A stretch of 64,000 nt of DNA from Lophium mytilinum. Taxonomy: Eukaryota. Shown here piece by piece: positions 31,712 through 60,300 of this stretch; position 1 is the stretch's first letter; every line of letters starts with the position of its first letter. Made by a program: the position numbers and the translations under genes. The notes below the pieces were generated by a model that saw nothing but the letters and a program-made list of their open reading frames with translations, was not told the DNA's origin and did no database searches. The stretch spans positions 3,410,001-3,474,000 of the forward strand of contig MU004181.1 of assembly GCA_010093605.1 (NCBI GenBank), given 5' to 3'.

Positions 31712-32800
31712 GGTGTCTGTCGAGTCGCGCGGCGTAGCAAATTGGTGGTGCAGGCGTCTCAGAGAGAAGAGAGAAAGTCGAGCTCGTGCGGATCGGCGCG
31801 AGGCTTGTAGGGTGGAATTGCCACGCGAGAAAGTGTCTCCAGCACTTGCGCAAGCTGCCTGCGGGGTCGCGAGCAGGTTGCGGTGGTGTTGGGTTTCGCG
31901 CGGTGGTGGTGGTGGGTGCGAAGAGACGCGAAACCGTCATGTAGGATTTCACGTGGCAGGTCACGTGCGTAGAGATAGATTGATAAGATTGATAAGACCG
32001 ATCTTTAGCGTCTTTCTGTTTCGGCTTAGCGGTTTTTCTGCTCTTATGTAATCGCTCTCCAAACCCCCTACAAAAAAAATGTACGCTGCTTCTCACTCTA
32101 CTTTCTTGTCCCATGCATTCCTACCAGATCCCTCCCCTTTCAAATTCCAACTTGGTGAAGGCTTGCGTTGCGCTGCATGCTACAGCTCATTCTCTGCCTC
32201 TTCACTGCTTTACTGCCTCATCTGGTACAGAACACTCTAGTAGCAGCTCGGCGAAGAGCTACGTCCTGTTTATTAGCCTACCTGGCTACAACGTCGATAG
32301 GACGTGCAATAGATGCATTCACCCCGTCTACGTGCCTGCTGAGTTAGCTACGCTACCTGCCAGTGACACCGCGACCCCTCCAATCAGAGAAAGCAAGAGT
32401 CCTAATCAGTGCAAGCCATTCCTGCACGTCTAACATAAGCAGTGAAATGTATTTGATTTTACATAAGCATAAGTTACCGTGTCGCTGCCCAGCATGTGGC
32501 TGTTAGGGCTGTGGCTGTGCGGTATGATTGTGGATTAGCGGATTTTCGCCTCGTAAAAGGTCATGCCTGCCCGTCTTCAGTCCTTCCAAGAAACAACCCA
32601 TCGAAATTCTGGTAACCAATTCAAGCAACCCCGTTCAGACATGTATCTTCATCTCAACTCATCCAGTCCTCTCTGATATAGAGAACATCGACGTTATAAG
32701 ACTAAACGGTGCACTTCCTGCTAGCTTCAGCCTTCCAGCCTATTCACCAACCTTTTAGTTTTGTAGTTCCAATTTTTTCCCATTTCAGGCATTGTACGAA

Positions 32801-34651
32801 ATGTGCTTTTATGAACAGCTCCGATTCGCGTGTGGTGACTGGAAATGGGGTCACTTCAGACAGCATTGTAACAGGGAACACCGGATGGGCGAAACTTGTG
32901 GGATAAAAATGATCCATCATACAACGCAACGGCCTTCGAAATGCAAGGTTTGTGAGAAATTGGACAGGAAGCTTCGCAAAATCGGGACAGAATTGGACAG
33001 AATCCGCCGCTGGAATCGCGAGGGTCGGAACCCGGCCTCAATTGAGAGGTCCAGGGATACCATCCAAGAGCTGGACCATGAGTACGAAAATATCAATGTC
33101 GAGATCTCCTCTCGTTGGGGATGGTCTGGTATGAATGGGCAACTAGAGCGAGCAGAGCCAGAAATGGCTTGTATAGGGCCAAAGATGGACGTTTACCAGC
33201 GAACTTGTGGTACATTAGCGCCACAGTCACGAGACCTGATTCAAGCATTTACCGATAGCATGCGTCAAAAGGCTTTAAGACAAGCGGAGATCGAGAAAAG
33301 GCTTGATATGCTTGTTCTACGAACCATGTCACTAGGTTTCGACACCGATGACGAAAGTCCGCAATATAACTACAATACGCCTAATACTATATCGAAGAAC
33401 CCGATACTGGCGCCGTAAGAGCGTACTACACCACGTTTTGAGGATATTACTTATACTGTAAATAGAGAAACCCTCCATCGAGTACGATCAATCGAGCAAC
33501 AAAAACAACCCATACTACCGCAGAGGCAAGGCCCGACTGTACCTGTTGTTCGGCAGCCTCTTACTATTCACGCAAGCCGACTTCACCCTCCAATCGATCT
33601 CTCTTGCCAACAAATCAGGCTGCTTGAATTGACATCAGCTCCCGGGGCAAAGGATATAGCAGGAAATTTTCACTGCGTCAACATTTCCGACAGCCCCCGC
33701 TATGTCGCCTTATCATATACGTGGGGAGCTTATGGAAATGAGAAACATATTTTAGTTGACGGTAAAGTGCTCCAAGTTAGAGATAACTTATGGTCATTCT
33801 TATACCATCGCGCATCGCATGCTTCGGAGAATTTATACCTTTACTGGATTGACGCCATCTGTATAGACCAGGACAATCACAAGGAGCGCAATCATCAAGT
33901 TGGCCTAATGAGGCAGATTTATTCAACAGCCTCACTCGTACTGATATGGCTTGGCCAAGAGAAGGACGATAGTGATGCCGCTATGGAATTTGTTGCGGTG
34001 GAAAGTTTGAAACCACTCAAACGGAAGGGGAGCGGGTACAAAGCGCTCTGGACAAGGCGGCAAGCGAAGGCACTATCAATTTTGAGCGAAAGATCTTACT
34101 GGAGACGCGTTTGGATTATTCAAGAGGTCGTTAACGCAAACCGTATTGTCGTGAGCTGCGGAACGAAAACCTTTGAATGGCGAGCGCTCGAAAACATGTA
34201 TCACAAGCTCAAGATTCTTGATCTAAGTGGATGGATCCAATATCACGAATTCGCCACCGGAATCTTCACAGGCGCTGCCATGGCTATAGTCTGGCAAAGA
34301 GCTCATTTCAGACACCCCGATACCCCAACACCCAGGTTGCGAGCTTTGCTACTAGCTTTTCAACACTCGCAATGCTCCGACAGCCGCGACAAAGTATATG
34401 GCTTACTAGGTCTAATTAGTGCGGCTACGAGTAACTCAGTGGACTATACCCTGACAACTGAGCAGCTCTATGAGCGTGTTGTAGCTTTAGAATGCTCACT
34501 AGACACAAGTAACAGTCGGTTACGCAAAGATGACATGCGGTTTTGTAAAATGCTTCGGCGATCATTGAGACTTCCCGAATGGTCAGTGATCGGCACAATG
34601 CAAATTGCTGACGATATGGACGATCTGAACGAGAGGTGGGACAGAGTTTAA
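32801..34651 (+). CDS. HET-domain protein, probably fused to an N-terminal Cys-rich domain via intron 33415-33465
   Basis: Exon 1: MCFYEQLRFACGDWKWGHFRQHCNREHRMGETCG...CKVC. Exon 2 HET motifs: QIRLLEL, YVALSYTWG, WIDAICIDQD...ERNHQVGLMRQIYSTA, YWRRVWIIQEV, DSRDKVYGLLGL. The GTAAGA...TAG intron keeps the frame (599 aa). Confidence 0.75.
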
Positions 34652-35579
34652 GTTCTCGTGGAACTTGGCAAACGCCGAGTCTGATTTTGGTTAGCATACC
34701 TATCTTCATTTCGCTGTGGTGCTAGTGTAATGCACCCCTTGTGAATAACATAGAATGCTGTTTAAAGTGGAGCTCGTCCGTGCGATTCGAAATCGATTCA
34801 GGCATACTATTGGCCCAGCTCGTATATTGAACCATGAGAAGTGGATTAGTTTTGGTGCTGTAAGAAGTGTAAAGTGGGAAAAGTCCGTGCAATTGAAAGT
34901 CGATCATGGCACAATATTGCTGTACGCCTTGAATCGAACCTTGTTCTCTAGGTTGATCTCAATACTGTGAGATGTATCATCGGGAGTCAGCAGCCTTCCA
35001 GTACTGGTTATATTAGGGCATGATTATGTATTTAACTTCGATTATTTTAGATAACGCTGTCTTTGACGACTTCCATGTGCAAAAGCTCCCTCAAGCCATA
35101 TACTTATTAGTCATCCAATGTCCACATGGTTTGTAGACTAGGAAGCACTTCGGGTGCTACACAAGGTCAAAGCGATAGAACAATCTGACATGGTATCTAG
35201 AGCTAGGCAATATGGGTCTAGCGCGGCTCCTTCGTCAAACGTTCCCCACTGCTGCCTGACCTGACTGATCAAAAGCATCAAGATATCAGGACATTTCGAA
35301 GACTTATCCTGTCTAGTCGACTACGTGCTTTCTCTATTACCTTTACCATCCTCTGAACCCGGCGCAGTGCACTGAGGACCCTCTTAGAACACAGTCTTAG
35401 CTCTTCTCAACCCCGCAGCCATCATCCTATCGATACGTCCCGAGGTCCCGTGCGATCTTGGCCACATTTGCAATACCTCGACCAATGTGACAAACAGAGC
35501 TAAAAGCTTTGGAACGTTACACCCGGCCACGTTCAAGAAAGGTATAGGCATTGATGTAAGGATCTGGCCTACGTAAATC

Positions 35580-38016
35580 ATGTCGGCTACCGAGGGGAGT
35601 AGCCATGCTGGCGACAATGCTCCCCAAAAACCATCTGACCAGCAATTAAACCGAGCCTGCGAACCATGTAGGCTGTCGAAAGTACGCTGCCTCATAGATC
35701 CTGGGTCGTCAACATGTCAACGCTGCGCGAAAGCAAAACGGACGTGTGTCTTCGTCGCGCCCCAAAAGAGGCGACAGCGTAAACGAACCGACGTAAGAGT
35801 CGCAGAACTTGAGCGTGAAGTAAGACAGATGCGTGCTCTTCTAAAAGCGTCTAAGATATCCCACGGTATTCAAGAAACAGAAGAACTCGACGACTCCAAT
35901 TCGGACGATCAAGAGAGCACGCCAGACCCAACACCAGACCCGGCATCCGTCAAACTACCCTCACTAACGCACCTCCCCTGGGGAAGGGAGTCTCCCCTTC
36001 AACCACCTGTAGAGTCTCCTGGGGCTTCGGAATCCGAAATGGCGTCCGATATCGTCTCACGTGGTCTCATAACCATGGACATGGCCAACGAGTTCCTAGA
36101 TTTGTACAGAGATGAGCTCTGTGACTACTACCCTGGAACGCTCATACCGAGTGCTTGTACTGCCAGCGAGCTCAGACAGTCCAAGCCAGTCCTCTTCTTA
36201 TCGATCATGGCAGCAACTAGCCAGTCGAAAGGCTTCGAGTTATCCGAGCGTCTTTTTGCAGAAGTATTGAAGGTTTATGCGGATCGCATCTTCATCAAAG
36301 GGGAAAAGAGGCTTGAATATGTGCAAGCACTAGTCAATACAATTTGCTACTATACGGCGCCCGGCACACAAGCTCAACTGCAGTTTTATCAGTACTCGAA
36401 CATGGCAGCTACAATGGCGATCGAGATTGGAATTGCTTCAAAACCTCGAACCCATAAGCAACTACCAGAGAAACATGGTGGAGATTTGGTACCAGTGTCA
36501 TCTCCAGATGGGCTCTTGGAGAACTGCCGAACTATACTGCTATGCTATCTTTTGACGGCAGGGTAAGTTTCATCTGCGTTTGATCTTTGCGGCCACTACT
36601 GATCTGGCTAGATTATCGATGAGACTACGCAGGCCCAATATTCTTGTATTCAATAGCTGGATGGCTGAGTGTATGAGCTTACTAGAGACATCGCCCATTC
36701 TGGCAGACAAGCAAGTATGCGCATGGTGAGCAAGCCAAACCCGTCGACTCTCGACTAGTGTAGCTGATATAGAGTGTTGTAGGGTCAAATTGCAGCGAAT
36801 AGCAGACGAGGCTACAACGGCATTTGGGTTCGACGACGCAAGCACAAGCTTTGGCCTCACAGAGTTACGCATGCAAGTCGTTCTCCGCGAATTCGAACGG
36901 AAGATGGACGCGTGGATGAGACAAACTCCGCCCGATGTCATGAATCGTAAGTTACCCAATCTTCTCTAGAAGCTTTCGGAGCTGATTTTTCATTAGTGTC
37001 TATGCGCATATCATATCAGCAAAACATAATCATGATGTGGGATTTCGCAATTGACGAAGGAAAGCACGATGCTCCCAATTTTCGGAACAAATACTTCACT
37101 TTACCATCCCTCGATCAGCCGCCGGATCAACTTGAGAAGACGACGCCCCTGAAGTCCCTTCAAATCACCGCGACCTTGAAGTGTATGGATGCTTCCCAAT
37201 CACTCCTGGATGAATTTCTCAGTCTTTCGCCTAAAGAACTGCAAAATGTGCCAAATGTTTTTTTTGTTCGGGCAGTCTTTTCTCTAGTAGTCCTCATGAA
37301 AGCGGACTACGCTCTGGGGACCAACCAAGAAGGCCTCGGCGAATTGATGGATGGGCAGAGCCTGAAGCTCGACTACTACCTCAACACCGTCGTCAGTCGT
37401 ATCACCGAAACGATCGGACCCCAGGTTTGCGTAAGTAATCTACCATGCCGCCGAGAGTCTCGCTGCAGTTCTCCCTTACTGACATTGGCCTCCTCAGCGC
37501 GTGCCGTCTCATTGGCTCAATGTGATAAATACGAGAATCTTACCATGGTACGAACAATACCAGCAAGTTCGACATTCCCGAAATGCATCTCCTCAGCAAG
37601 CAGTAACCGTAGAGAGTCACGACCCAACATCTCATTCCAACCCGCCTCCCGCACCTATCGTCTACCCTACGGGTGCGTTCGTGGCTTTTCCAGGGGGCCG
37701 CTCCGTCTCACTTTCCATCACGGGATCTGATCTAACGCCATCAACTTCCGCTACTGGTGGCCACGAACACCTGACCTTTCCGAAATCGCCAGCGAATATG
37801 GATCAAGCCCCAAACTTTGACTCCCAATGGAACTTTTTGGCGGATGATTCGACTTATGTGGCAGAAAAGCCTGCCTTTCCAGCAGATATGAACACCTTGT
37901 TCGACCAGGGAGACCTTTACTTCTGGAACGACGAGATGGACCTTAGCGGGACGTGGATGCCACCAGGCAACGGCTTCGACAACCTGCAGTCTCAATATCC
38001 ACCACAGGGCTCTTGA
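35580..38016 (+). CDS. Zn(II)2Cys6 fungal transcription factor
   Basis: RACEPCRLSKVRCLIDPGSSTCQRCAKAKRTC, followed by RVAELE and a middle homology region (ELRQSKPVLFLSIMAA, ENCRTILLCY). About 4 introns. Confidence 0.9.
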
Positions 38017-44441: not shown

Positions 44442-47400
44442 ATGCCAGAGCCACTGTAGTGTGAGCTCTAGGGAGTCATGCTAGGTATTGATGCGAACAT
44501 GACTGGGATGTTCTCCTTCCTTTTGGCGTTCTTTTGCATGGTGTTTTTGAAGCATACGGATGCATCGTCAGTTAGGTGGATCTCCATTTCGTCTTATCGT
44601 GGTTCAGATCCATTTCCAGAGTTCTCTCCTCTCCGTAGGCGTGGAGTAGTAGTTTAATTTCCTCTAAAGACCTTTACATTGCTGTCATAGCCTCGTCGTG
44701 GACTCCTTCCCCGTTCAAGTGCACACATCCTAGGTCATCCCCTCTTCTCCGCACCGCGCGAATGCACTCCGCATTCTAGCAGCTCACGTGGAGGCCCAAA
44801 AATCCTCAGGCTTCATCCCTTCTGCAGCAGCGGAAGTATCTAGCGCTCTTCTTTACTCTTTCGGTGCTTCTTTCCCCAAACCCATCCTACAAAGGTATCA
44901 AAGGTTCATACGAGAACACATGTGTGCTGTTCTTCATCCATCCATCCACCAATCACACCATTCTGCCACCCGCTACATTCACCCACTCCACTGTAGCGAA
45001 TATCACTGTCTCGAGCACCAATCAGAGACCATCCGAAAGCATCACCAGAACACGCATCGCAGGAAGAAGCGAGACTAGGAGCGTAGCGGGCAGCGCCATC
45101 GACCGATCCGCCTCCCAAGCGCCCACCGTCGTTCGTTAGAAGTTGCACCCAAGGCAGTCGTTTTCCATCACAGGGATGGCACCACCGCACTCCTCTTTTT
45201 CCCTCCGAGGCGGCCAGTGGCGTCTTACCGGCCAAGCCACGATCGACAGCCCTAAATCGAAATCGGCTTAGATTGACGAGACGCCACTGATGTCATCGCG
45301 CAAGGGGCAGCATATCCATCGACGACGTCAAACCCCAAATCCGCGACCCATCCACGAGGAGCGGACCACGCTTCGCGCGGTCCACGATTCCAGGAAACTG
45401 CGAGTAAGAAACATAGGAGTTCCAAGATGTTCTAGCGGCTCCAATCGGCCGCACTCCGCTCTGTGCTTGAACCTTGGAACCGGCGTCCGACGATCAAAGC
45501 GACGTTCCGCCTTGCCGTCCTGCCGCACGTTGTCACCATGAGATACGGGTTGGTGCCCGGCTCCACTTCTCTCGGGTCCTACTCCGACCGTGGACGGTGA
45601 ATGATACGCAGTAGTGCCGTAGCCGGGCGAAAGCAAACAGCACTGTCTCGCCTGATTGTGGCTGTCTCTTCGTCGAGATTCTCCACTGCAGCGCTGGCGC
45701 ATAATGTATGTTAGCAAGCAGCTACGCACGTCACTGTCACTACATTCTTTCTCTCCGCTAGAAGGTCCAATCATGGTTGGGGGGAGACTCCAGCCACTCA
45801 GCAGCCCAGCCACATGAAAATTCTGATGGGGAGGGCTGAATATCGCTGCCCAGCTTGTCGGTCGTTGCGTGTTTCGGATCCAAGACGCACGCAGCGCTGA
45901 TCATGGTGCCACATTGGCCTTGCCCGCTCCGCCTACCAAGTATCCGAAGTGGGTTCTTGGAGCAAATGCTGAGAAATCCTGTGATTACGGCTGCTGGCAC
46001 CTAAGCGTTGCGGTGTATAAGCCACGCGACGAGACGAGCCATCGCCCATCGTGCCGCTCGACAAGAAACAAAAAAGTCGTCACAGCGGTGTAGTGGCGGT
46101 CGAGGTGCGTAGCTGACACTGACACCGCCTTGCAGTCCGGGCGTTTCCTCTCAACGCGCCACCATCCGTCATCGCGTTGCTCTGATCCTGGGTGGCTCCC
46201 GCTTTCCCTGCGTCGGGCTACAGTTTGGATTGCCTGTATCTTGGCGGCAAACGTTTTATAATGCCTACAAACGCCTCCAGGACGCCAGATTAACACGCCT
46301 ATGCCAATTAAGGCCTAGTAACTAGTTCCTAGGCCTATTTAAGTATTAGCTTTATTATCTTATATTATAGAGGTATTTTTAGCTACTATATAACTCTATA
46401 TAGGCCTTAGCTATAGTATTAAGATATAATTTCTTATATACTTTATATGCCGCACCCCTATTATTATTATAATATTATTTTAGAGTATATATAATTAATA
46501 ATTTTAGCTATTCTTTAATAGTTCTAGTATAGTTTAGTAGTTAGTAGGGCGGTATTAGGTTAGTATCTACTACTATATCTATAGCTATAATAATAGGTAC
46601 TAACCTAGCTCTACTATAAATAAGAGACCTTTTTATAGATTTAATTTCTAGTAAGGTTACTTTCTTTTTACTTCTTACCTTTTAGTAAAGAATAGCGCTA
46701 AGTCTAAGAATTATTAAGCTAGAATTTAGTATAATTTAGTATAGAAATTAATAAAGTTATAAATTTTTAAATAAAAGTATAAAAATAGTAAGTAAGAATA
46801 CTTAGTAGTAATAGATTTTAATTAGGGAATAAATAAGTAGAGTAGTATTAAGTTTCTACGTAATCTAATTAGCTTACTAAGTAGAACTAACCTAATTAGG
46901 TAGTTAGTAATAGCCTCTAAATTAGGCTTAGATTATAGCCAGCATTCTACTAGTAGAAGTAGTTAATATAATTAATTAAAAATTAACTAAAAATATATAA
47001 GAAGTAACTAATAAAGGCCTATATACTAAACTAAGGAAAAATAAGCCTAGAGACTATAAAAAAGGGCTTAATTTCTATATAAAAGTATTAAAATATATTA
47101 AATTATTATATATTCTCTATACTTCTATTTATTCTATTTATTATAACCTCTTAAACTATATACTAAGTACGCCTAGCCCTCTACTCTTATAGAGCTATAG
47201 CTATTACCTATATACTATTAATTACGCTATACTAGACCTTAAAGCACCTTCTTAGGTAGCGCTAGGTAGGTATTTAATAGAATAATATTCTTAGTTTTTA
47301 CGGGCTAAGAATAGCGCTTAACTAGGTACGCTAGTAGTAGGTGTATAGCCTTATAGAACCTTAGCTATAAGGTAATTTAATAGAAGAATTATATCTATCT

Positions 47401-47972
47401 TTCTATCTTCTACTTAAGGGCGCTAATAATAGTAATAGTATAGTAGTAAAAAAAGTTATAATTCTAGAATTCTTTATATATATAATTATATAGATTAAGG
47501 TATACTATATAGACCTTTACTATATAGTAGTAGAGAATATATACTAAAAGAGAGGTACTATCTAAATTAGTAAATATATTTAGATAGTAGTAGTATATAG
47601 TACCCTCCCTCTATACCTATATATAGAGCTTCTAGCTATACTAAAAAAAGTACTTAAAGCTATTAAAATTATAAAAGTACTAGATAGAGGTGCTAAGCTT
47701 TATAATTTTAGTATAGCGCTTAGTATAAGTTATAATATATTAGTACTAGATAAAGCTAATAAGTAAGAGTATTAACTTTAAGCGCTTATTATAGATAACC
47801 TTATTCTAAAACTTACTTACACCGCTAGTAATAGATCTAAAGCGCCTAGTAGGGCAGTCTCTTAATAGCTACTTTCTAGAGTTCTAAGTAAGTATATAGG
47901 CTATAGCGCCCGAGCTATAGATAGCTATTTTAGCTATATTCTACTAAAATAATATATTATTAGTATATTAAG

Positions 47973-48192
47973 TATTACAGTATAAACCTAGAATTCTAAT
48001 AATTACATGCTAAGGTTATATGCCGTCCCTTACGTAACCTAAGTAAGACGCTAGCCCGGCGCTAGGCCGCGGCCTATGCGCCGGCGTTAAACTATAACCT
48101 CTTAAGAGCTTCTAGCTCTCTCTTTTCTTCTTAGCTTAGATTTTTATAATAGTTAATATACCTTATTACTTATATTATATTAGCCCTCTATA
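47973..48192 (+). repeat. 5' LTR of Gypsy copy 1
   Basis: 220 bp, colinear with 55547-55766; all differences seen are C/T or G/A transitions. Confidence 0.93.
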
Positions 48193-51100
48193 TAATCTAA
48201 GCTTACTCTTCTATACTTAGAATCTTATTAATTTTTTCTAGAACTCTATCGCGAGATCTAGGCGTTTTTACTAAAACTAATTAAATACCTACCTGCCGGC
48301 CTAGCTATATAGCTACACGCGGCACTTAAATTTAATCTAGTAAACTATAATCTAGCACCGCCTCCTTTAAATAAGCTAGTAGTTAATTTAATAGCTAGGC
48401 TTTAAGATAATTTAAAGACTCTAGGCGCTATAAATAGCGCTAACCTAAATACTTTAGAAGAACTACCTATTACCTATACTTCTATAACTCTATTAATAGC
48501 TAGTAATAAGAAAGCCCGCTATACTACGCAACTTGCGCATTTTTAAGGCGTAGTAAAAGGCTCTTCTACTCTAGCTATTATTTCTAGCTCCCGGTATAAA
48601 ACTAGAGAACTAATTCTAAATATCTAAGAAGAGACCTAAGCCTTCTTATAGACTATAGATAATACCTAGCGTACTAATATCTAGCGCCCTAACGCCTAGC
48701 GCACTAATACCTAGCGCCCTAAATACTTAGTAGATAATTAAGTTAATACTACTAGACCCGTAAACTAGAACTAGAACTAGACTATTACTAATAAACTTAA
48801 TCTAGACTAAGACTCTAATAATAAAGGCGGCTTTATTACGCCTAGTATAAACATTCTAGGTAAGCGCACTATTTAATTTATTATAGAAGATAATATATAT
48901 AACCCTTACACCTAAGCTAGTAGTAGTAAGCTATACGCTATCTATTACTAAGTATCTATAGTAGATTAATAAGCCTTTATTCTAGTTGCGCGCTATAAGA
49001 CTAAATAGGTTCTAGACGCTAAACCTAAATATATAGATATTCTAGAAGGACTATAAGAAACTAACCTATAGCGCTATATATAGCTACTAGTCTAGCTTCT
49101 TAACTATTATAGTAATAGTACTATAACTATTAATACTATAGTTACTAATAAGATAGAGTTTACCGCTATAGTAAATAAAAATAACCTAGTATAGTAGAAG
49201 TCCTTCTAGAAGCTTTATATAGAGTATAAAGTAGGCTTTAAAGAAGCTAATAAAAAAGATAAGCTCTATAATAACCTCTAGAATAAGTACTAGAAGTATA
49301 AATAAGATACCTCTAATAACACTACTATAGTAGAATAAAAGTTAGAGGCCTATTACACTAAGTAGCTATAGTAAGTTGCAAGTAGTTATTAGGCTAATCT
49401 TAAGCTTAACTAGATGCGCCTATATTATAATTACTAGCGTAGTAAGTACTAAACTCTTAAAGAGATATATAAGAAACTTACTACTTATATTAAAGAGCTT
49501 AAATAATAGCTTTCTTAATAGACTTATCTACCGCCCTTAGACTCTAACTATAATTCTAATAATAATAATAATAGCACCCGCTTTTCTATACCTATAGTAC
49601 CGGTTTACTGTTATTCTATTAGCTAGCCGCTGCAGTTTAAACCTATTAAGAGTAAGTCCGCCACTCTATTTACGCCCGTTTAGGACCTCGGCGCGTACGC
49701 GGTAATATCTTATTACCCTAATCTAGATAAGTTTAGTAGCAGTAATAAGAATAAGCTATTCTACTAATAATAGTATATATAGGTACTTAGTAAGCTAGAT
49801 ATCTATACACTACTATATGCTATCTTATATTATTATATAGTATATATCCGCAATAGGCTTAAGGGTAAAGTATTTAATATAATCTTCTACCGCGCTAAAC
49901 CTAATAGTAATAAGCTATACCTCTCTATAGAGAAATTAATTAATAACCTAAATAAAGTCTATAGACCTTTTAATAAAGTAGTAGACGCGCGTACTAATTT
50001 ATATAATAGTAAGTTTATATAAGAGAAAGATAAGCGCGTTATAACCTAGGTAGAATACTTTAATACTAGCGTAGCCTCCCTCTACCTTAAAGACCCTAAG
50101 AAGATCTACTATATATAGTATAATTTTACTAACAGCCTTAAGTATAAGGCCGCTAATAGATAAGATACTAATATAATAACTTTTATTATATTTCTCTAGA
50201 CTTTAGAATTATAGCTTAATATTATTAAACTAAATAAGAATACCTAAAAGAATAAGAAGACCTCTAAGTCTACGCGCGATAACTATAAAGCTACGGGCGG
50301 TAGCTTATCTATGCCTTACCGCCCGCTACTTACTAACGCCGAGCGTATATCTAAGAATAATACTAGTAACGCTATCTCTAGTACTACTACTACTACTACT
50401 ATAAATAACTCCTCTAGCCTCTTTAGTTGCAACTGCTATACTATTACGCGCCTTAAGTAGCTTAGATATTACTAGAACTATCTAGAGCGTAGATATATAG
50501 CTAATAGCAACGCCCTATATATTAGATAATAGCTAGTCCCTATCTATAAGGTTAGTAGTCTTACTAATAAGATTAGCCTTACTAGCGTTAATATTAGCGC
50601 TATAAATACTAGCTCTACCTATAATAAGATAATAAAAAATGCCTAGTTCTTAGTAATAGTTACTACTAAGAACCTCTAGCCTTTAATAATAGGAAATTAA
50701 GAGCGGTTATAGATAGAATTACTATTTTAGAATAAGAAATTAAGCTAGTTATTATGCGTATATCTACTCTTACGCCGCAACTAGTTAACGGCGAATAATT
50801 TAGCTTCTTAGGTAGAATCCTCTAATCTAATTCTATTTCTAACTTTTTTACCGCTAAGATTCTTTCTAATATAGAATTAGGCTCTTAATTTCTTTATTTA
50901 AAGACTACGCGCCTTTATAAGATATCTACCTAACCCCTTTTATAACCTATTATTCTTAAGCTTACTAATAGTAAGCCCTCTATTATACTAGACCGCGTAG
51001 TAGATATTACCTTCTATATATATAACTACTATAATACTATTACTTACTATATTACTAATACTAGATAATATAATATAATCTTAGGTATACTATAGCTTTA

Positions 51101-51274
51101 GCTTTATAACCCCACTATTAGTTTTAGAAAGACCTAGCTAGTCTTCTAATCTAACTACTATATATCTAACTACCTCTAATATAGTAGGCCTATTATTATA
51201 AAGAGCCTTATTTATTTAAAATATATTAAAATTAAACTGTACTAGAACCTAGATAATTTCCACGGCTCTTAATA

Positions 51275-51340
51275 TAACCCTAACCCTAACTCTAACTCTA
51301 ACTCTAACTCTAACTCTAACTCTAACCCTAATTCTAATCT
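51275..51340 (+). repeat. Hexamer tandem repeat (TAACYC)~11 inside the Gypsy pol region
   Basis: Reads TAACCC TAACCC (TAACTC)6 TAACCC TAATTC TAATCT. A shorter version lies at ~61727-61756 in copy 2. Confidence 0.85.
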
Positions 51341-54300
51341 TAGCCCGGTTATTAAAGGGCCTAATAACGTAGAAGACTCCCCTTAGCTTAATTATAATAG
51401 TAAGCCCCTTCCGCCTAAACTAGTTTTACCGGACAAGCCCCTAGTATATAATATTTAGTTTATTTCCGCGTACGCCTATTCTACTATAGCTAAGTAGAAT
51501 AGGGACGCGGTAATAACTATTACTTTATAAGACTTTAAATAATTAAACTAGCCCTAGAAAATAGATAAGCAACACGCCTATAGATACTAGGTAGTAAACC
51601 TTATAGGTATTACTATAGAGGACTACTATTACTTTAAGAAAAAGATAACTAAATTACTATATACTAAGAATTAGCTATAAGAAAAAGTTCTACCCTTTTT
51701 CTACTAGATTTTAGACGCCTTTAATCTATAAGTAGTAAATAAGCTACTACTATATAGGCCTAGCGTGGATTACGCTATTAACTTTAAGAACCCTAATACT
51801 AAACCGCCTATCCCTTGCTAGTATAGCCTCTTCTATAATAAGCTCTGCGCAGTTAAGGCCTATATTAATAAGATGCTTAGAAAGAGCTTTATTTACCCTA
51901 GTACATTGCTATTTATAGCGCCCGTTATTATTATCTATAAGCTAGGCGGAGGACTCTGCATTTATATTAATTACTGTTTACTAAATAAAATTATAATTAA
52001 AGATAGAAACGCCTCTTTTCTCTTATATAATATAATTACGCAGCTTTATAAAGCTAAGATATACTCTATCTTTAATATTATTGCTGCCTTTAATAATATT
52101 TATATTAAGAATAGTAATTAGCTAAAAACGGCCTTTTAGACTTAATACGGCGTTTTTAAATTTAATATTATGCCTTTTAGCTTATATAACGCCCCTAGAA
52201 CATTTTAATTATTTATTAACTCTATATTATAACTATACCTTAATATCTACTATATAGCCTATATAGACGACGTCCTTATATATAGTAATAATAAGAAAGA
52301 TTATAAAAAGAACTATATAAATATTCTTACCGCCTTATATAATGTAGGTCTCTTTCTTAATATTAATAAGTATTACTTCTTAGTTAAACGTGTTAAGTAT
52401 CTTGGACTAATTATTACGCCTAACAGTATAGAAATAGACTTAACTAAAGTTAGTACTATCTAGGACTAGAAGCTGCCCCGGAATATTAAGGACGTTTAAT
52501 TCTTTTTAGGTTTCTATAACTTCTACCGGCAATTTATTACTAGCTATTTATAAATAGCTACTCTACTAACTAAACTTACTAAGAAAATAATAGAATAAGG
52601 TAATTTTCCCCTACTTACTAATAGTTTAGCAGCGCAGGCCTTTAAGAAGCTTAAAGCCTTATTTCTTTCTATACTAGTTCTAGCCTACTTTAACCTAGAC
52701 TTAGACTATATACTAGAGACTAACGCCTTAAACTATATTATAGTAGTAATCCTCTCTTAATAAGGCCTAGATAGAATTCTTTAACCTATAGCTTTTCTTT
52801 CTAAAAAGATAACTCTAGCTAAGTATAACTATAAAATCTATAATAAGAAACTACTTGCTATTATATAGGCCTTTAAGGAATAGCGCTCTAAACTTATAGA
52901 TATTATTAATCTAATACTTATCTAAATAGACTATAAGAACCTAGAATACTTTATATTATTAAAGTAGCTTAACTACTACTAGGCCTATTAGGCTAAATAC
53001 CTCTTATAGTTTAATTTTATCCTAAACTAGCAACTAGGTAAGTAGTTAACTAAGCCTAATAGCCTTACTTATAGGCCTAGTAATATTCTAGATAATCTAA
53101 ATAATTCTAGAATAATATATTAAACGCAAACTATTCTAAAAAAGAGGAACTTACTAGACGGTATATATTAAGCCCTTTAACTAGCTAGCATGCTCCTAAA
53201 TAAATAGAAAGTTCTAGTTATTAGAATTACCTAGCTTATATATAAAGTAGCTAAATAGTACCTAACTAATATTCTATATATTATTCTAGCCGCCAATAAG
53301 ACTAGAGAAAAGAGATACTTAACTAAGGCCGTAGTAGACTATAGTAAGTTAGATAAAGATCTATACAACGCTGCCTCTAACGTTACTGTATTAATCGCCC
53401 CTAAACCCGCACCTACAGGTTCTACCGCTAAAGAAGGAGCGCCGAAGGTATCTAAGCCTAGTAATAAGTTAGATAAGAACTTACTAGGGAACTATACTAA
53501 TAACGCTACTATTTAGTAGATTAATTAAGTATATATAGAGAATAATATTCTCTAGCATATTATGCACGTAAAAGAGATAGGTAAATAGTAAATTCTACTT
53601 AAACTTATTTAGAAATAAGGAATTAAAATTAAGCTTAGTAACTATAAAATTTATAAAAATAGGCTATTTATTAATAGCTACTTATATATTCTATATAATG
53701 TAAAGCTCTATATACAGTTAATTAAGAAAGCCTATAACTTTCTTTCTAGAGGCTATACTAGAAGAAACTCCCTCTACTATTACCTCTTCTTTTAGTACTA
53801 CTAGCTAGGTATTATAAACTTTATTACTATATATATTAATACTTATTTTATATATAGACGTATAAAGGTCTATAAAGAAGGTAAATATAGCTTACTTAAG
53901 CCCCTACCTATTCTAAATTAATACTAGATAGATATATCTATTAATTTTATTACTAAGCTACCCTCTTATATAGTTAAGGGCTGTATATACTAATATATTA
54001 TAGTAGTAGTTAACCGGCTATCTAAAAAGTATAAGTTTATCCCTCTAGACTCTATAGAGCTAGAAGATATTGCGTAAGCCTTTATTAACTAGATTTAGTA
54101 TAAAGAAGGCTATCTAGACTATATTATATTTAACTATAGAGTATAGTTTATATCTTTCTTTTAGAAATACCTATATAAATATATAGAAACGCATCTAAAG
54201 CTATCTACTATAGCCTACCCGAAGACTAATAGATAGATAGAGATTATTAATGCAGGTCTTAAGTAGTACCTACGCGCGTACGTCTATTACCTGTAGAATA

Positions 54301-55546
54301 ATTAGGTAAACCTTATTACCTTTACTAAGTTTAAAGCTAATATAGATATTAACTAGTCTATAGGCGTCTCCCTCTTTAAGGCTACTAAAGAATACACGCT
54401 AAGAAGTGGCCTTAAACCCTCTTTATAAGGAATTATTATACTAGAGTCTAAAAAATAAGGCGTAGACGCCGCTAAGAAGCTTATTATATAAATTTATAAC
54501 TTATATAAGTTCCTTAAAGGCGAACTACGTTGGAATTAATCTAAAATAAAGGAACTAGCTAACTAGAACTAATTGCCGGCCTCTAAGTTTAAAGTTAATA
54601 ATATAGTTATACTTAATACTAAGAATATCTATACTATATAACTAAGTAAGTCTCTTAACTATAAGAATCTTAGTCCCTTCTATATAACGCGTATTATTAA
54701 TAATATAGTATATAAGCTAGAACTTTCTAAGTCTATAAAAGAAATCTTTCTAGTATTCTATCTATAGCTACTCTATTAAATTAATAAGAATCCGCCTCTT
54801 CTAGAATAATATCTAGAACCCCTGCCTGCGCTTAAAATAGAAGAAGATAGCTTTATAGGGCAGTACTATATTAATAAAGTTCTTAATTCTAGATTTAACG
54901 GCCGCTAACTAGATCTATATATAGGCAAGAAACTATACCTTATATATAAGATAGCCTAGATAGGTTATAATAATACCCGGCCTAAATAGAAACCTTACTA
55001 GAACGCGGACGGCTATAATAAGCTTCTTATAGAGTATTATAATAAATATAGCCTTAAAGTAGAACCTTATTTAATATTTAGTACGTCTAAATAGAAGGTT
55101 GCAAAGATAATAGGTAAGAGTATAAGCGCTGCCGCGGTAATAGTAGGCCTATAGAATATTCTTAGTACTAGCCTAAGTAAGTATAAATAGTAACCTTATT
55201 AGGTAGCTAAGTTATCTTATAAGAAGGCTATTCTATATAGGCAACCTAAAGTAGGACTCTAATAGGTAGAAGCTAATAATAGGCCTTAGATTAATTTATA
55301 CGGTCCGCTTGCAGCGCTTAAGAATAACTATAAGAATAAATATAAGGATAAATATAAGAGTAAATATAAGGATAAAAATAATAGATATAGTAAGGCTGCA
55401 CTAATAACTATATATAATAGTAAGTATATAAATAAAAGAGCTATATAAGCGGCTTAATATAGATAGAATGGAAAGAATAGAATAGATAGAGGAGCTATAA
55501 TATATTATAAACCTTATAGAACTTTAGCTTTTAAAGAGGGGGGTAG

Positions 55547-55766
55547 TATTATAGTATAAACCTAGAATTCTAATAATTATATACTAAGGTTATATGCCGT
55601 CCCTTATATAACCTAAGTAAGACGCTAGCCCGGCGCTAGGCTGCGGCCTGTGCGCCGGCGTTAAACTATAACCTCTTAAGAGCTCCTAGCTCTCTCTCTC
55701 CTCCTTAGCTTAGATTTTTATAATAGTTAATACACCTTATTACTTATATTATATCGGCCCTTTATA
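55547..55766 (+). repeat. 3' LTR of Gypsy copy 1
   Basis: Preceded by the polypurine tract and followed by the TTAAG TSD. Confidence 0.93.
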
Positions 55767-57330
55767 TTAAGTAACTATATAGAATAAGTATAAGCTAGTA
55801 ACTCTATAGGCCTTCTTAATATTCTCTATAAGGTGCTAGTAATAGTATATAGCGTAGCAGGCTAGAAAGTAGATAGTAATAGCGTTAATTAGGCCTTTAT
55901 TATAATTACTATAAAAAAAATAGTATAAGTAGGTAGATTTTTAAATAATTTACTATAGAGAATAGTATAGTTAATAGAAACTATAAAAATAGGTATAGAA
56001 ATTAACTATAGCGTTAAGAAGTATATAGAAGAAAATTAAGAGATATAAGTACTATTATAAATAGGCGTATAGAAATTAAGAGGGGGCTATTATAATTTTT
56101 ATTAATATCTATACTTATTTATTATAATGGAAACTTACTTATAAATATATAATTTCTTACTAAAATTAATATATTTAGCGCGTTCTTTCTATAATAAATA
56201 AACGTATAGATATTCTTAAAAAAGAAAATAATACTTATAAGTAGATAGTCTACTAGCTAGCTTTTAGAACTACTATAGCCCTAATTATATTTATATAGAA
56301 CTACGCCTATATCTTATTACTTTTATTCTTTATAATACTCTATGCTAGCGGATAGATTTTATTATTCTAGTTATATCTAATAGCTATTAGAATAACGCCT
56401 TTATAGCTATTCTACTAGTATATTCTATTAAGTTCTATCTATCTAAGACTATTACTAAAAAAGAGGTTACTCTTTTTAGAATAGATAAAGATGTATAGAA
56501 AAATATTACCCTATATTATAAGGTCTATTATAACGCCTAGGTTAGCCTTATAGAGGCGCTAGAGAAACTTAGAAATTCTCTAGTAGTTCTCTTGCGTAGT
56601 AACTATCTTCTTACTAGTAAGAATCTTCTAAACCTTTTAAGCCTACACCTTTTTAATAGGCCCTCTATAGTATATTATAACTATAGACTAGATAGTTACT
56701 ATTAGTATTACTCTATTAATATATAGAAATTAAAATAGTACCTCTAGTAGATACTTAATATAAGTATAAGGCGCCCGGGCAACTAGTAGAGCCCTAATAT
56801 AATAGTAGAGGTTATTAACCTTTACTATAGTAATTAACTTCTTATTCTTCTTTCTTATAGTATAGAGACGCTAGTTATAATCCTCTATTAAATAGTAGCG
56901 GAGGTTTAGGTAGCTATTCTTACTAGTATATATATAAGAAGCCTATTATTTCTTAATAGCTATATTATAGATAAGAAGTTAAATCTTATTCTAATAGCTA
57001 AATTAATTACTAATATTAGAAATACTAGCTAATTATATCGCGGCAATAAGGTAGGCAATAAAAAGTAGTTAATTTAGGCTAGAAATAGCTTAATTTAGGG
57101 TAGAATTAAAGGCTATAGATAATAGTAAGTATATAGATAATAGTAGAGCTATAAATAATAATAGTAAGGCTATATAAAAGGCTATATAAAAGGCTATATA
57201 AAATAGAAAGAATAAATTAAGGCCTTTAAAAAGGTATAGAAAGGGCCTCTATATAGTAAGTTCTTATAGCTTTATAGTATTAAAATCTATTAATTTTTAT
57301 TACTTTTTTATTACTAATATAGTATAGAAA

Positions 57331-60300
57331 TATAGAGGGCTAATATAATATAAGTAATAAGGTATATTAACTATTATAAAAATCTAAGCTAAGAAGAAGA
57401 GAGAGAGCTAGGAGCTCTTAAGAGGTTATAGTTTAACGCTAGCGCATAGGCTGCAGCCTAGCACTAGGCTAGCGTCTCGCTTAGGTTATGTAAGGGGCGG
57501 CACGTAACCTTAGTATATAATTATTATAATTTTAGATTTATACTATAATACTATCCCCCCCTTTAAAAGCTAAAGTTCTATAAGGCTTATAATATATTAT
57601 AGCTTCTCTATTCTTTCTATTCTATTTCTATTAAGCTACTTATATAGCCTTACTATTTATATACTTACTACTATCTATAGTCTTACTATATCTATTATTT
57701 CTATTATTTCTACTATTTTTATTATTTTTATTCTTATATTTATTTTTAAGCGCTGTAAGCGGGCTATATAAATTAACCTAAGGCCTATTATTAGCTTCTA
57801 CCTATTAGAGTTCTACTTTAGGTTGCCTATATAGAATAGCCTTCTTATAAGATAACTTAGCTATTTAATAAGGTTGCTATTTATACTTACTTAGGCTAGT
57901 ATTAAGAATATTCTATAGGCCTACTATTACTATAGTAGCGCTTATACTTTTACCTATTATCTTTATAACCTTCTATTTAGATATTTTAAATATTAAATAA
58001 GGTTCTAGTTTAAGGCTATACTTAGTATAGTATTCTATAAGAAGTTTATTATAACTATTAGTATTCTAATAGGGTTTCTATTTAGGCTATATATTATTAT
58101 ATCTAGTCTAGGCTATCTTATAGACTACGTAAGGCTTCTTACCTATATAGAAATTAAGGTGTTAGCTATTAAAGTAAAAGTCTAATACCTTATTAATATA
58201 GTATTTCCCTATAAAGCTATCTTCTTCTATCTTAAGTATAGGTAGAGGTTCTAGATGTTATTCTAGAAGGGAAGAATTTTTATTAATTTAATAGAGTAAC
58301 TATAGATAGAATACTAGAAAGATTTCCTTTATAGAGTTAGAAAGTTCTAGCTTATAGGCTATATTATTAATAACCTATATTATATAAAAGGGACTAAGAT
58401 TCTTATAGTTAAGAGACTTACTTAGCTATATAGTATAAATATTCTTAGTATTTAGTATAACTATATTATTAACTTTAAATTCTAGGGTAGGTAGATAGTT
58501 CTAGTCGGCCAGCTTCTTTATTTTTAACTAATTCTAGCGTAGTTTATCTTTAAGGAACTTACGTAGGTTATAAATATAGGTAACTAGCTTTTTAGCTATA
58601 TTAACGCCTTATTACTCGGGTCCTAGAATAATAATACTATATAATAATAGTTCTAGCCCGCTATAGGGCGTATAGCTCTTAGTAGCTTTAAAAGATAATA
58701 TACTAGTAGACTAGTTAATATTAGTATTAGCTTTAAACTTAGTAAAGGTAATTAGGTTTATCTAATTATTTTACAGGTAATAAATATATACGCGTAGGTA
58801 TTATTTTAGGCCTACATTAATAATCTTAGTCTAGCTATTAGTTTCTAGGTAGACTATTATAGATAGCTTTAGATATATTTCTACGCATTTATATAGGTAT
58901 TTCTAAAAGAAAGATATAAACTATATACTATAGTTAGATATAATATAGTTTAGATAGCCTTCTTTACGCTAGATTTAGTTAATAAAAGCTTATATAATAT
59001 CTTCTAGCTCTATAGAGTCTAGAGGAATAAACTTATACTTCTTAAAAAGCTAGTTAATAACTACTATAATATATTAATATATACGGCCCTTAATTATATA
59101 AGAGGGTAGCTTAGTAATAAAATTAATAGATATATCTATCTAGTATTAGTTTAAAATAGGTAGTAGTTTAAGTAGGCTATACTTACTATCTTTATAGACC
59201 TTTATGCGCCTATATATAAGATAGGCGTTAATATATATAGTAATAGAGTTTATAATTCTTAGCTAATAGTACTAGAAGAAGAGATAGTAGTAGAGGGAGT
59301 TTCTTCTAGTATAGCCTCTAGAAAGAGAGTTATAGGCTTCTTTAATTAACTATATTTAAAGCTTTATATTATATAGAATATATAGGCGGCCGTTTATAAA
59401 TAGCCGGTTTTTATAAATTTTATAATTACTAAGCTTAATCTTAATACTCTATTTCTAAATAAGTTTAAGCAGAATATATTATTTACTAGTTTCCTTAGCG
59501 TGCATAATATACTAGAGAATATTATCCTCTATATAAGCTTAATTAATCTACTAGATAGTAGTATTATTAGTATAGTTATCTAGTAAGTTCTTATCTAACT
59601 TATTACTAGGTTTAGATACTTCTAGCGCTTCTTCTCTAGGTAGATTACTAGTAGCTATAGGCTTAGAAGTAATAGATATAGTAATATTAGGGGTAGTATT
59701 CTATAGATCTTTATCTAACTTACTATAATTAGCTATAACCTTAGTTAGGCGCTTCTTTACTTTTATTCTATTAGCTACTAGAATAATATATAGAATATCT
59801 ATAGAGTATTATTCTATAACTTTATATATTAGCTTAGTAAGCCGAATAATAGATACTTTTTATTTATTAAGAAGTATACTAGTAAGCTAGAGGGCTTAGT
59901 ATATTTCTTCTAGTAGGTTTCTTTTCTTTAATATAGTCTATATTTAATATATAGTTCTAGAGTTATTTAAATTATCTAGAATATTACTAGGCCTATAAGT
60001 AAGGCTATTAGGCTTAGTTAACTACTTACCTAGTTGCTAGTTTAGAATAAAATTAAACTATAAGAGGTATTCTATCTAGTAGGCTTAGTAGTAATTAAGC
60101 TGCTTTAATAATATAAAGTATTCTAGGTTCTTATAATCTATTTAAATAAGTGTAGGGTTAATAACGCCTATAAGTTTAGGGCGCTATTTCTTAAAGGCCT
60201 ATATAATAGTAAGTAATTTCTTATTATAAATCTTATAATTATACTTAGCTAGAGTTATCTTCTTTAATAGAAAGGTAATAGGATATAGAATTCTATCTAG

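What the first reader, a model, noticed from the sequence alone, without database searches (positions are those of the whole stretch)
32801..34651. HET cell-death domain fused in frame to a small Cys-rich (putative Zn-binding) N-terminal domain
Seen in sequence: the HET reading frame has no ATG of its own and stays open back to a TAG acceptor at 33463-33465. The upstream ORF has a GTAAGA donor at 33415 overlapping its stop. Removing the 51-bp intron joins CC+A (Pro) in frame, giving 599 aa. The N-terminus (C-x8-C-GDWKWG-x4-HC-x8-TCG...C-x2-C plus a coiled coil) resembles a ~110-aa hypothetical protein that I recall as usually stand-alone in Pezizomycotina. No NACHT/NB-ARC, WD40, ankyrin or HET-6-type tail follows the HET domain. 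Established: HET domains (PF06985) are effectors of fungal allorecognition and cell death. Inference: this could be an uncharacterised sensor- or decoy-plus-effector architecture, in which a copy of a conserved host protein gates a death domain. Unspliced transcripts would make only the ~205-aa N-terminal protein, so splicing could act as a switch.
Basis: partly seen in the sequence, partly recalled or inferred. Interest (0 to 1): 0.7.

Follow-up and report, generated by a model that had tools for sequence, protein, structure and literature searches.

The report
Six-cysteine cap fused to HET domain
This is a real, spliced fungal gene that joins a small, uncharacterised six-cysteine domain to a HET cell-death domain, and the same pairing recurs in many related fungal HET genes, so it is an undescribed but not unique design.

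Summary
ORF1 (32801-33418) and the HET frame lie in the same frame, separated only by the TAA inside a 51-nt GTAAGA...TAG intron (33415-33465). An assembled contig of a public run, which I read as RNA, joins 33414 to 33466 exactly. The spliced product is identical to the 599-aa NCBI protein 'HET-domain-containing protein [Lophium mytilinum]'.

The N-terminal about 113 aa (the 'cap') has invariant M1, C2, C11, C23, C33 and C51. It is predicted as three strands plus a helical hairpin. It has no Pfam or PDB relative. It belongs to a Pezizomycotina-wide family of 377 cluster representatives, mostly free-standing proteins of 110-125 aa.

The fusion is not unique. 19 of the 119 nearest HET relatives carry a cap at their N-terminus. 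Exon 1 also holds the subfamily's conserved pre-HET helix. Caps are also fused to twin retropepsin-like proteases, a kinase and PNP_UDP.

The decoy and splicing-switch ideas remain untested. Only the spliced form was assembled. My best reading is that the cap is a regulatory or assembly module on a TIR-like death domain.

The parts
32393..32442 (+). Alternative 5'UTR intron (GCAAGA...CTAAC...AG, 50 nt)
   Evidence: record 3 joins sequence ending at 32392 to 32443 (depth 3.8), while record 1 runs straight through (depth 4.5). The sequence was read.
32443..32800 (+). 5'UTR covered by the main transcript contig; holds 5 upstream ATGs
   Evidence: The contig starts at 32443. The uATGs lie at 32447, 32494, 32524, 32563 and 32641, with uORFs of 4-37 codons.
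32801..33414 (+). Coding exon 1 (aa 1-204 plus two bases of codon 205)
32801..32935 (+). Cap beta module, aa 1-45, with invariant M1, C2, C11, C23, C33 (C48 and C51 follow at the start of helix 1)
   Evidence: Alignment A3 of 60 sequences. AF2 strands 2-8, 14-22 and 36-43, with pLDDT about 95, dipping to 79-86 over aa 21-40.
32945..33139 (+). Cap helical hairpin, aa 49-113 (helices 49-74 and 78-113; W71 nearly invariant)
   Evidence: AF2 model with pLDDT above 95. Only generic helical-hairpin fold matches, Z up to 8.8.
33221..33331 (+). Pre-HET helix, aa 141-177, with motif LDMLVLRTM (aa 168-176, 33302-33328)
   Evidence: AF2 helix 143-177. The motif [LM][DNS]xx[VI][LI]xxM occurs in 60 of the 86 HET relatives that have at least 95 aa before HET, at a median of 104 aa upstream. 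In this protein it lies 119 aa upstream.
33415..33465 (+). 51-nt phase-2 intron, GTAAGA...TAG, 35% GC, holding the in-frame TAA (33416-33418)
   Evidence: Skipped exactly by the contig of run X1.
33466..34651 (+). Coding exon 2 (last base of codon 205 to stop TAA 34649-34651)
33701..34126 (+). HET domain as Pfam defines it (aa 284-425 of the 599-aa protein); the conserved region continues to about aa 578
   Evidence: PF06985, E 6.9e-31 and 1.7e-30. Homologues align to the C-terminus.
34652..34970 (+). 3'UTR as far as the contig reaches
   Evidence: The contig ends at 34970.

Best explanation
SHOWN: one gene of Lophium mytilinum is transcribed and spliced into an mRNA for a 599-aa protein. Its order is a six-Cys cap (three strands plus a helical hairpin, aa 1-113), a pre-HET helix (aa 141-177), a linker of about 100 aa modelled at low confidence, and a HET domain with its conserved blocks intact. 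The cap is a Pezizomycotina-wide module. It almost always sits at the extreme N-terminus. It is usually free-standing at about 110-125 aa, but it also heads HET, twin retropepsin-like protease, kinase and PNP_UDP proteins. Cap-HET is a recurrent design within this HET subfamily. INFERRED: the cap is a metal-stabilised (probably Zn) protein-protein module, and its hairpin controls when the HET domain self-associates. HET is reported to be TIR-like and sufficient to kill when overexpressed, and TIR-type domains act when brought together. The cap would therefore hold the death domain off until a cue or partner, possibly a free-standing cap protein, assembles it. The gene belongs to the fungal cell-death/immunity repertoire. 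It is not necessarily an allorecognition (het) locus.
For: Gene and splicing: joint 33414/33466, GT..AG, contig depth 20.1, spanning both halves; product equals P0053. HET. The blocks ALSYTWG, WIDAICIDQ and YWRRVWIIQE agree with the consensus of alignment A4. Cap family: 377 representatives at E<=1e-3 and 239 at E<=1e-10. By my hand count, the match starts at residue 1 in about 106 of the 150 listed rows. All 80 metagenome loci start at M1, and 44 of 51 distinct products are complete ORFs of 94-141 aa. Named members come from Dothideo-, Lecanoro-, Sordario-, Eurotio- and Leotiomycetes (class assignments are my recall; species names). Invariant residues are M1, C2, C11, C23, C33 and C51. The cap model is confident. 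Recurrence: 19 of 119 HET relatives are capped, including one marginal hit, P0300. 7 of 7 capped relatives rescanned have Pfam HET. Examples are Cadophora P0207, Lentithecium P0252 and Fusarium P0231 and P0224 (names). On the HET tree, several capped rows sit next to near-identical rows with shorter N-termini, such as P0271/P0275 and P0224/P0226, so the true share is probably higher. One unit: the pre-HET helix lies in exon 1. Other partners: Asp_protease_2 in P0055, P0158 and P0180 and in the single ORFs L002, L022 and L045; Pkinase in P0095; PNP_UDP_1 in P0089. HET as TIR-like and sufficient for death: passages read in PMC12881547, PMC10197012 and PMC9815663.
Against: Nothing here shows what the cap does. 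Metal binding is inferred only from six invariant Cys. No PDB or Pfam relative exists to lean on. The full-length model is poor across aa 179-341 (pLDDT below 50) and says nothing about cap-HET contact. Its Foldseek search returned no TIR match, so TIR-likeness rests on the literature and not on my data. Most other HET-fused caps keep only the beta module (HMM positions 1 to about 52) and replace the hairpin with other sequence. A hairpin-based mechanism therefore cannot be general. The Lophium cap is much closer to free-standing proteins (median 48%, range 36-66%, over about 102 aa; 84 of 84 hit) than to other HET caps (22-50% over 12-90 aa; 19 of 20 hit). That pattern fits a recent capture or refresh as well as it fits inheritance. 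Run X1 is only guessed to be RNA.
Confidence: 0.7

Rival explanations
1. Integrated decoy or sensor. A copy of a conserved free-standing host protein is fused to HET, so that tampering with it, or a mismatch with its partner, triggers death.
For: The Lophium cap is unusually similar to free-standing proteins, up to 66% over about 102 aa. In the probable metagenome relative the N part is 63% identical while the HET C-half is 87% identical. The N part therefore evolves faster, as recognition modules often do.
Against: No NLR or other sensor scaffold is present. The same cap heads several unrelated enzymes. A cap is spread across the HET subfamily. Together these points fit a general control module better than a target mimic. 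No target or effector is known. I could not check whether Lophium has a free-standing paralogue, because no genome is held. P0002 and P0204 are linked only by equal contig length (11828).
Confidence: 0.12
2. Splicing switch. Regulated retention of the 51-nt intron yields a 205-aa cap-only protein, because the stop sits inside the donor site. That protein would act as a regulator or antidote to the full-length killer.
For: The in-frame TAA lies within GTAAGA. The relative's N-part ORF (P0002) ends at the same place. Free-standing caps are the family norm.
Against: Any phase-2 intron that begins GTAA or GTGA gives an immediate stop, so this feature is generic. In run X1 only the spliced form was assembled across this intron, at depth 20.1. 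In the same run both forms of the 5'UTR intron were assembled, at 4.5 and 3.8. A retained form would also have a 3' tail of about 1.5 kb after the stop (33419 to 34970).
Confidence: 0.1
3. The cap is a passive N-terminal structural or targeting tag, affecting stability or localisation, with no role in switching HET.
For: It is strictly bound to the N-terminus with an invariant M1-C2. It has many unrelated C-terminal partners. The linker to HET is long and modelled at low confidence.
Against: Free-standing caps with no cargo are the commonest form: 44 of 51 distinct ORF products. That is odd for a mere tag. Conservation extends through the hairpin surface.
Confidence: 0.12
4. Two separate genes, stop-codon readthrough, or a decaying pseudogene mis-joined by annotation.
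For: A single in-frame TAA separates two ORFs in one frame. Readthrough would also give a fusion protein.
Against: The contig removes exactly 51 nt at GT..AG and spans both parts. The HET frame has no ATG before 33908, which lies inside the domain. Both parts are intact and conserved. Other genomes have the same order.
Confidence: 0.02

Closest known systems
[quoted passage not shown]
   Same: It has a Pfam HET domain with its conserved blocks and no NOD or repeat module. HET is often the only recognisable domain (PMC10197012 passages).
   Different: Here HET sits C-terminal to a defined six-Cys cap plus a helix. None of the passages or listings I read mention such a cap. Nothing shows that this gene is an allorecognition locus.
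HNWD NLRs (HET-E/D/R: HET-NACHT-WD40)
   Same: Same death domain, proposed to be TIR-like.
   Different: There is no NACHT or WD40 domain. In HNWD proteins HET is N-terminal and controlled from its C-terminal side. Here the candidate control module lies on the N-terminal side.
Integrated-decoy immune receptors (concept from plant NLRs; recalled, not from a call)
   Same: A domain that also exists as a free-standing cellular protein is fused to a death-signalling protein.
   Different: There is no NLR. The cap is a promiscuous N-terminal module on several enzyme types. No targeted host protein is known.
Free-standing cap proteins (unnamed 'hypothetical proteins', e.g. Eremomyces P152DRAFT_461135, Phyllosticta IWZ01DRAFT_482676)
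   Same: 36-66% identity over about 102 aa, with the same invariant Cys and hairpin.
   Different: Those proteins end after the hairpin at 110-125 aa. The window's protein continues into a pre-HET helix, a linker and HET.
Cadophora sp. DSE1049 DL98DRAFT_655500 (P0207, 500 aa)
   Same: Cap followed by HET. Overall identity is 40%, the cap is 49% identical over 79 aligned positions, and the best HET-region segment is 52% identical.
   Different: The cap match stops early in helix 2 (aa 1-76 of the Lophium cap). The second hairpin helix and the middle region do not align.

Membership tests
HET domain (Pfam PF06985) | Profile match above the curated cut-off | tested here: met
   108 bits against a cut-off of 22.5, E 6.9e-31, profile positions 1-146 of 146. 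106.7 bits on P0053.
HET domain (Pfam PF06985) | Conserved blocks (..SYxWG, WIDxxCIxQ, YWxRxWxxQE, including the Glu said to be functionally relevant) | tested here: met
   The protein reads ALSYTWG, WIDAICIDQ and YWRRVWIIQE, matching the consensus of A4. Which Glu corresponds to the TIR catalytic Glu is recall plus the PMC9815663 passage; I did not map it here.
HET domain (Pfam PF06985) | Induces cell death when expressed | not testable with these tools
   Reported for other HET domains (Paoletti & Clave 2007, as cited in passages read).
TIR-like fold | Structural similarity of the HET region to solved TIR domains | tested here: inconclusive
   Foldseek on the full-length model found no match at E<=1e-3. 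The HET N-half was modelled at pLDDT below 50.
Fungal NLR (e.g. HET-NACHT-WD40) | NACHT/NB-ARC nucleotide-binding domain and C-terminal repeats | tested here: not met
   Pfam at E<=1 lists only HET for the C-terminal 410 aa. At E<=1e-3 it lists only HET on the 599-aa protein.
het (allorecognition) locus | Allelic or partner-gene polymorphism under balancing selection that causes incompatibility | not testable with these tools
   Only one genome sequence is available and no population data. The review passage says that only a small fraction of HET genes are het loci.
Six-Cys cap family (unnamed) | Starts at M1-C2; C11, C23, C33, C48 and C51 present; W16, G30, T32, G34, K57 and W71 conserved; three strands plus a helical hairpin | tested here: met
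   The window sequence has all of these residues. phmmer gives E down to 1.2e-33 against family representatives. AF2 model.
Zinc finger / zinc ribbon | Metal-binding fold related to a known zinc-finger class | tested here: inconclusive
   There is no Pfam match below E 0.18 and no PDB sequence relative. The fold searches were dominated by the hairpin. The beta module was not searched on its own, and metal binding cannot be tested here.
Integrated decoy | Integrated domain homologous to a free-standing cellular protein | tested here: met
Integrated decoy | Host receptor scaffold (NLR) and a known targeted host protein | tested here: not met
   There is no NLR domain. No target is known.

The most novel reading that the evidence does not exclude
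The six-Cys cap marks an unrecognised, Pezizomycotina-wide, non-NLR control system. One small N-terminal metal/Cys module, free-standing in most copies and always starting M-C, is wired to interchangeable executioner enzymes: HET/TIR-like, twin retropepsin-like protease, PNP_UDP and kinase. These are largely the same enzyme types that fungal NLRs carry. Free-standing caps would be the partners (trigger or antidote) of capped effectors. Alternatively, the cap itself would sense redox or metal state through its cysteines and exposed N-terminal Cys. The Lophium gene, whose cap is nearly free-standing-like, would be a recently rewired member.
Probability: 0.2. Interest if true: 0.75.

Novelty: new variant of a known kind. 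Interest (0 to 1): 0.4.

Why it matters
HET genes are among the most abundant and least understood fungal cell-death genes. The iScience 2023 review states that HET is often the sole identifiable domain and that no recent evolutionary analysis of HET proteins exists (passage read). This work defines a confidently modelled N-terminal module that recurs on a whole HET subfamily and on other enzyme types. That gives a concrete handle on how non-NLR HET proteins might be controlled, and it gives a family (cap HMM) that could be annotated. The particular Lophium gene is only one example and is already in the databases as a HET protein.

Tried and rejected
1. No RNA holder was listed as such. The only holder, X1, is 'RNA? 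(a guess)'. I treat it as RNA because it carries GT..AG and GC..AG joints that are absent from the genome sequence.

2. No contig covers the intron in X1. Contigs drop rare variants, so this does not prove that retention is absent.

3. No whole genome is held, so I could not search Lophium for a free-standing cap paralogue. None of the 51 hits is named Lophium. This is weak evidence, because that search depends on shared words and on annotation.

4. The first metagenome scan with P0002 found nothing. The second gave 80 cap loci but not P0002's contig. tblastn with the Lophium HET part hit 0 of the 80 loci. The link between P0002 and P0204 therefore rests only on their equal contig length.

5. 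Homodimer prediction of the cap (aa 1-116, two copies, plus 2 Zn) gave no answer: score 0.30 against a mark of 0.32. This is evidence neither way.

6. Fold searches of the 205-aa model returned only generic helical hairpins. The full-length model returned nothing. The PDB profile search returned only coiled-coil noise.

7. The Atlas returned only unnamed Ascomycota clusters (after a busy error).

8. Earlier findings of this scan: none.

9. Paper searches for the cap motifs, for 'HET domain' with cysteine/zinc terms, and for Lophium found no description. Passage searches in PMC9815663 and PMC4540973 also found none. The supplements of these papers were not opened, so a cluster table there could still list the cap.

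10. There is no paralogue of the cap or of HET elsewhere in the window.
Full report
OBSERVATION

An ATG at 32801 opens a 205-codon ORF that ends at TAA 33416-33418. GTAAGA starts at 33415, so the donor G is the third base of codon 205 and the stop lies inside the donor site. TAG ends at 33465.

One detail differs from the finding. The intron is 51 = 3x17 nt, so ORF1 and the HET ORF are in the same frame and are separated by that single TAA. The stop-to-stop HET ORF therefore reaches back to 33419. The TAG is out of frame. The first in-frame ATG of the HET frame is at 33908, inside the HET domain, so the HET part has no plausible start of its own.

A script joined 32801-33414 to 33466-34651. 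It gave 599 codons plus a terminal stop, identical to P0053, 'HET-domain-containing protein [Lophium mytilinum]'. This names the organism and shows that the fused model is already in NCBI and UniRef.

SPLICING IS OBSERVED

One public run (coded X1, kept as assembled contigs, 'RNA?' by guess) holds 96% of the sampled words of the locus. When laid on the window, a 2477-nt contig of depth 20.1 covers 32443-33414 and 33466-34970 and skips exactly 51 nt with GT..AG ends. Upstream, the assembly branches into a colinear piece (depth 4.5) and a piece that joins 32392 to 32443 (depth 3.8). The second piece is a 50-nt GC..AG intron with a CTAAC branch site in the 5'UTR.

Two splice-type joints that are absent from the genomic sequence make RNA the sensible reading of this run. 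No contig covers the 51-nt intron. The same assembly kept both forms of the 5'UTR intron, so retention of the coding intron was at most minor in that sample. Contigs cannot exclude it.

The annotation probably used similar data, so the NCBI model and this contig are not independent of each other. The contig is nevertheless direct evidence.

THE TWO MODULES

Pfam finds HET (PF06985, E 6.9e-31, full profile length) and nothing else. There is no NACHT, NB-ARC, WD40 or ankyrin domain. The blocks ALSYTWG, WIDAICIDQ and YWRRVWIIQE are intact.

The N-terminal 205 aa have no Pfam hit better than E 0.18. phmmer against 1.84 billion representatives finds 377 proteins at E<=1e-3 and 239 at E<=1e-10, matching only aa 1 to about 100-110. 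By my hand count, in about 106 of the 150 listed rows the match starts at residue 1 of both query and target.

In an alignment of 60 members, M1, C2, C11, C23, C33 and C51 are invariant. W16, E26, R28, G30, T32, G34, C48, K57 and W71 are at least 90% conserved.

AlphaFold2 with that alignment gives three strands (2-8, 14-22, 36-43) and a helical hairpin (49-74, 78-113), mostly at pLDDT about 95-98 with a dip to 79-86 over aa 21-40. A helix at 143-177 follows.

Nothing known matches this module:
- Foldseek against the PDB gave nothing at E<=1e-3.
- The wide VIA search gave only generic hairpins, Z up to 8.8, a level the tool itself calls common for helical models.
- A profile search of PDB sequences gave only coiled-coil noise.
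- The Atlas neighbours are unnamed Ascomycota clusters.

Zn binding is therefore an inference from six invariant cysteines, including a C-x2-C at the start of helix 1. It is not a result.

THE CAP FAMILY

Most members are free-standing. The word-indexed search lists 51 proteins, mostly 112-135 aa, from lichen-forming and other ascomycetes. A metagenome scan gave 80 loci, all starting at M1, with 51 distinct products. 44 of these are complete intronless ORFs of 94-141 aa. Named members come from Eremomyces, Lineolata, Phyllosticta, Clohesyomyces, Beauveria, Ophiocordyceps, Aspergillus, Fusarium and Cadophora. The range is therefore Pezizomycotina-wide.

The cap is also a promiscuous N-terminal module. 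It occurs in these longer forms:
- Single uninterrupted ORFs joining it to two retropepsin-like lobes: L002, L022 and L045, with Pfam Asp_protease_2, and also P0055, P0158 and P0180.
- P0095, which carries a protein kinase domain.
- The 1522-aa Aspergillus pseudoustus protein P0089, which carries PNP_UDP_1.
- P0069, which carries ankyrin repeats.
- L056, in which about 950 aa are inserted between the two hairpin helices.

Of the 42 longer proteins scanned, only P0053 had HET. However, that list came from a 50%-identity representative library, which hides fused forms.

THE FUSION IS RECURRENT

I searched with the HET part alone. 2082 proteins reached E<=1e-3, and the best 120 were listed. This showed that many relatives of 520-690 aa start MC[YFWL]Y...C.

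An HMM of cap aa 1-113 hit 14 of the 119 relatives. One of these hits covers only the hairpin of an N-truncated model, P0215. An iterated HMM of aa 1-58 hit 19 of 119, always at the N-terminus. P0300 is marginal at 14 bits, and the E-values refer to that small set. All 7 of the 7 capped relatives that I rescanned have Pfam HET. Named examples are:
- Cadophora sp. DSE1049 DL98DRAFT_655500 (P0207, 40% identical overall).
- Lentithecium fluviatile (P0252).
- Aaosphaeria arxii (P0282).
- Fusarium vanettenii NECHADRAFT_79724 (P0231).
- F. solani-melongenae (P0224).

I built a FastTree of the HET regions with 110 rows. Ten N-truncated rows without block 1 were dropped: P0204, P0256, P0269, P0297, P0305, P0307, P0309, P0312, P0314 and P0320. 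On this tree the cap label is scattered, needing 19 changes for 20 capped rows, no better than shuffles. Several capped rows sit beside near-identical rows with shorter N-termini, for example P0271/P0275, P0224/P0226 and P0252/P0233. Much of the apparent absence is therefore probably an artefact of prokaryote-style or incomplete gene calls. The tree is quick, and its long branches carry warnings, so I use it only for this qualitative point.

The Lophium protein sits in a starred three-row group with P0203 and P0300. That group lies in a nine-row group (support 82) that also holds Cadophora P0207.

EXON 1 IS MORE THAN A CAPTURED SMALL GENE

Helix 143-177 carries LDMLVLRTM (aa 168-176). The motif [LM][DNS]xx[VI][LI]xxM occurs in 60 of the 86 HET relatives that have at least 95 aa before HET block 1. 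It lies at a median of 104 aa (range 85-156) upstream of that block. In Lophium it lies 119 aa upstream. The intron therefore splits the linker of an old single gene. It does not sit at the seam between a small gene and a HET gene.

The Lophium cap is nevertheless unusual among HET caps. It keeps the whole hairpin. It is 36-66% identical (median 48%) to 84 of 84 free-standing proteins over about 102 aa. It is only 22-50% identical, over 12-90 aa, to 19 of 20 other HET caps. Most of those keep only the beta module and follow it with Cys/His-rich stretches. Either the Lophium lineage preserved the ancestral form, or its N-terminus was refreshed from a free-standing gene. I cannot tell which.

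A CLOSE RELATIVE

P0002 is a JGI metagenome ORF, 63% identical over all 205 aa, and it ends at the same position as ORF1. P0204 is 87% identical to aa 378-599. Both come from a contig of length 11828. If they are one gene, the arrangement and the stop-in-donor are conserved, and the N part diverges about three times faster than the HET C-half. I could not fetch the contig, so this remains a lead.

HOW IT LIKELY WORKS

Established from papers, as passages read:
- HET is proposed to be a distant TIR relative with a conserved glutamate.
- HET is sufficient to induce death when overexpressed.
- Most HET genes are not het loci.

From general knowledge of TIR domains (recalled), activity depends on self-association.

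My inference is that the cap is a metal-stabilised interaction module. It is tethered to HET by a linker of about 100 aa that is modelled at low confidence, and it sets the conditions under which HET assembles. The cap's partner set (HET, PNP_UDP, kinase, protease) overlaps the effector repertoire of fungal NLRs. This points to a cell-death or immunity role.

The decoy reading and the splicing-switch reading are possible but unsupported. A stop right after a phase-2 GTAA donor is a generic feature. A homodimer prediction of the cap gave no verdict. The full-length model gives no information on domain contacts, and its fold search found no TIR match.

CONTEXT

The gene lies among ordinary genes: GNAT, PRPP synthetase, sulfotransferase, tubulin, syntaxin, GH72, an RRM protein upstream on the minus strand, and a fungal transcription-factor-like ORF, an MFS transporter and an amine oxidase downstream. 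There is no second HET or cap copy in the window. From about 46 kb to the end, GC falls to 26-32% and no ORF of 130 aa or more occurs.

VERDICT

The architecture is not described in anything I could search, but it is recurrent, and this instance is already annotated as a HET protein. It is a new variant of a known kind, of moderate interest. The value lies in the cap family rather than in this one gene.

Noticed in passing
window 46001-64000: A block of about 18 kb at 26-32% GC, against about 47-57% elsewhere. It has no stop-free frame of 130 aa or more after 45900. It looks like degraded, RIP-type repeat DNA bordering the gene-rich part.
   Followed up: no
window 32393-32800: The 5'UTR holds an alternatively used 50-nt GC..AG intron (32393-32442). 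Both forms were assembled, at depths 3.8 and 4.5. It also holds five upstream ATGs with uORFs of 4-37 codons. This suggests translational control.
   Followed up: partly
L056:1147-4407: A single 1087-aa ORF. The cap's beta module and helix 1 sit at the N-terminus and the second hairpin helix sits at the very C-terminus, with about 950 aa and no Pfam match inserted between them. L067 looks like a relative.
   Followed up: partly
L002:1041-2129, L022:3774-5255, L045:125-1630: Uninterrupted ORFs that join the cap to two retropepsin-like lobes, each with a D[ST]G motif (Pfam Asp_protease_2). This is a recurrent second cap architecture.
   Followed up: partly
proteins P0222-P0284 (HET relatives): Between the cap and the pre-HET helix, many relatives carry repeated C..(G)C.L...H...H-like Cys/His stretches, e.g. 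'CATAGCFLPANHGPPH'. These are absent from the Lophium protein. Seen by eye only.
   Followed up: no
P0089 (Aspergillus pseudoustus, 1522 aa), P0095 (667 aa): The cap also heads a protein with a C-terminal PNP_UDP_1 domain, and it lies (from residue 122 of the model) in a protein with a kinase domain. These could be gene-model fusions. I did not check them at the DNA level.
   Followed up: no
window 32001-36000: The HET gene region is 47-48% GC, a little below the 53-54% of the 6 kb upstream.
   Followed up: no
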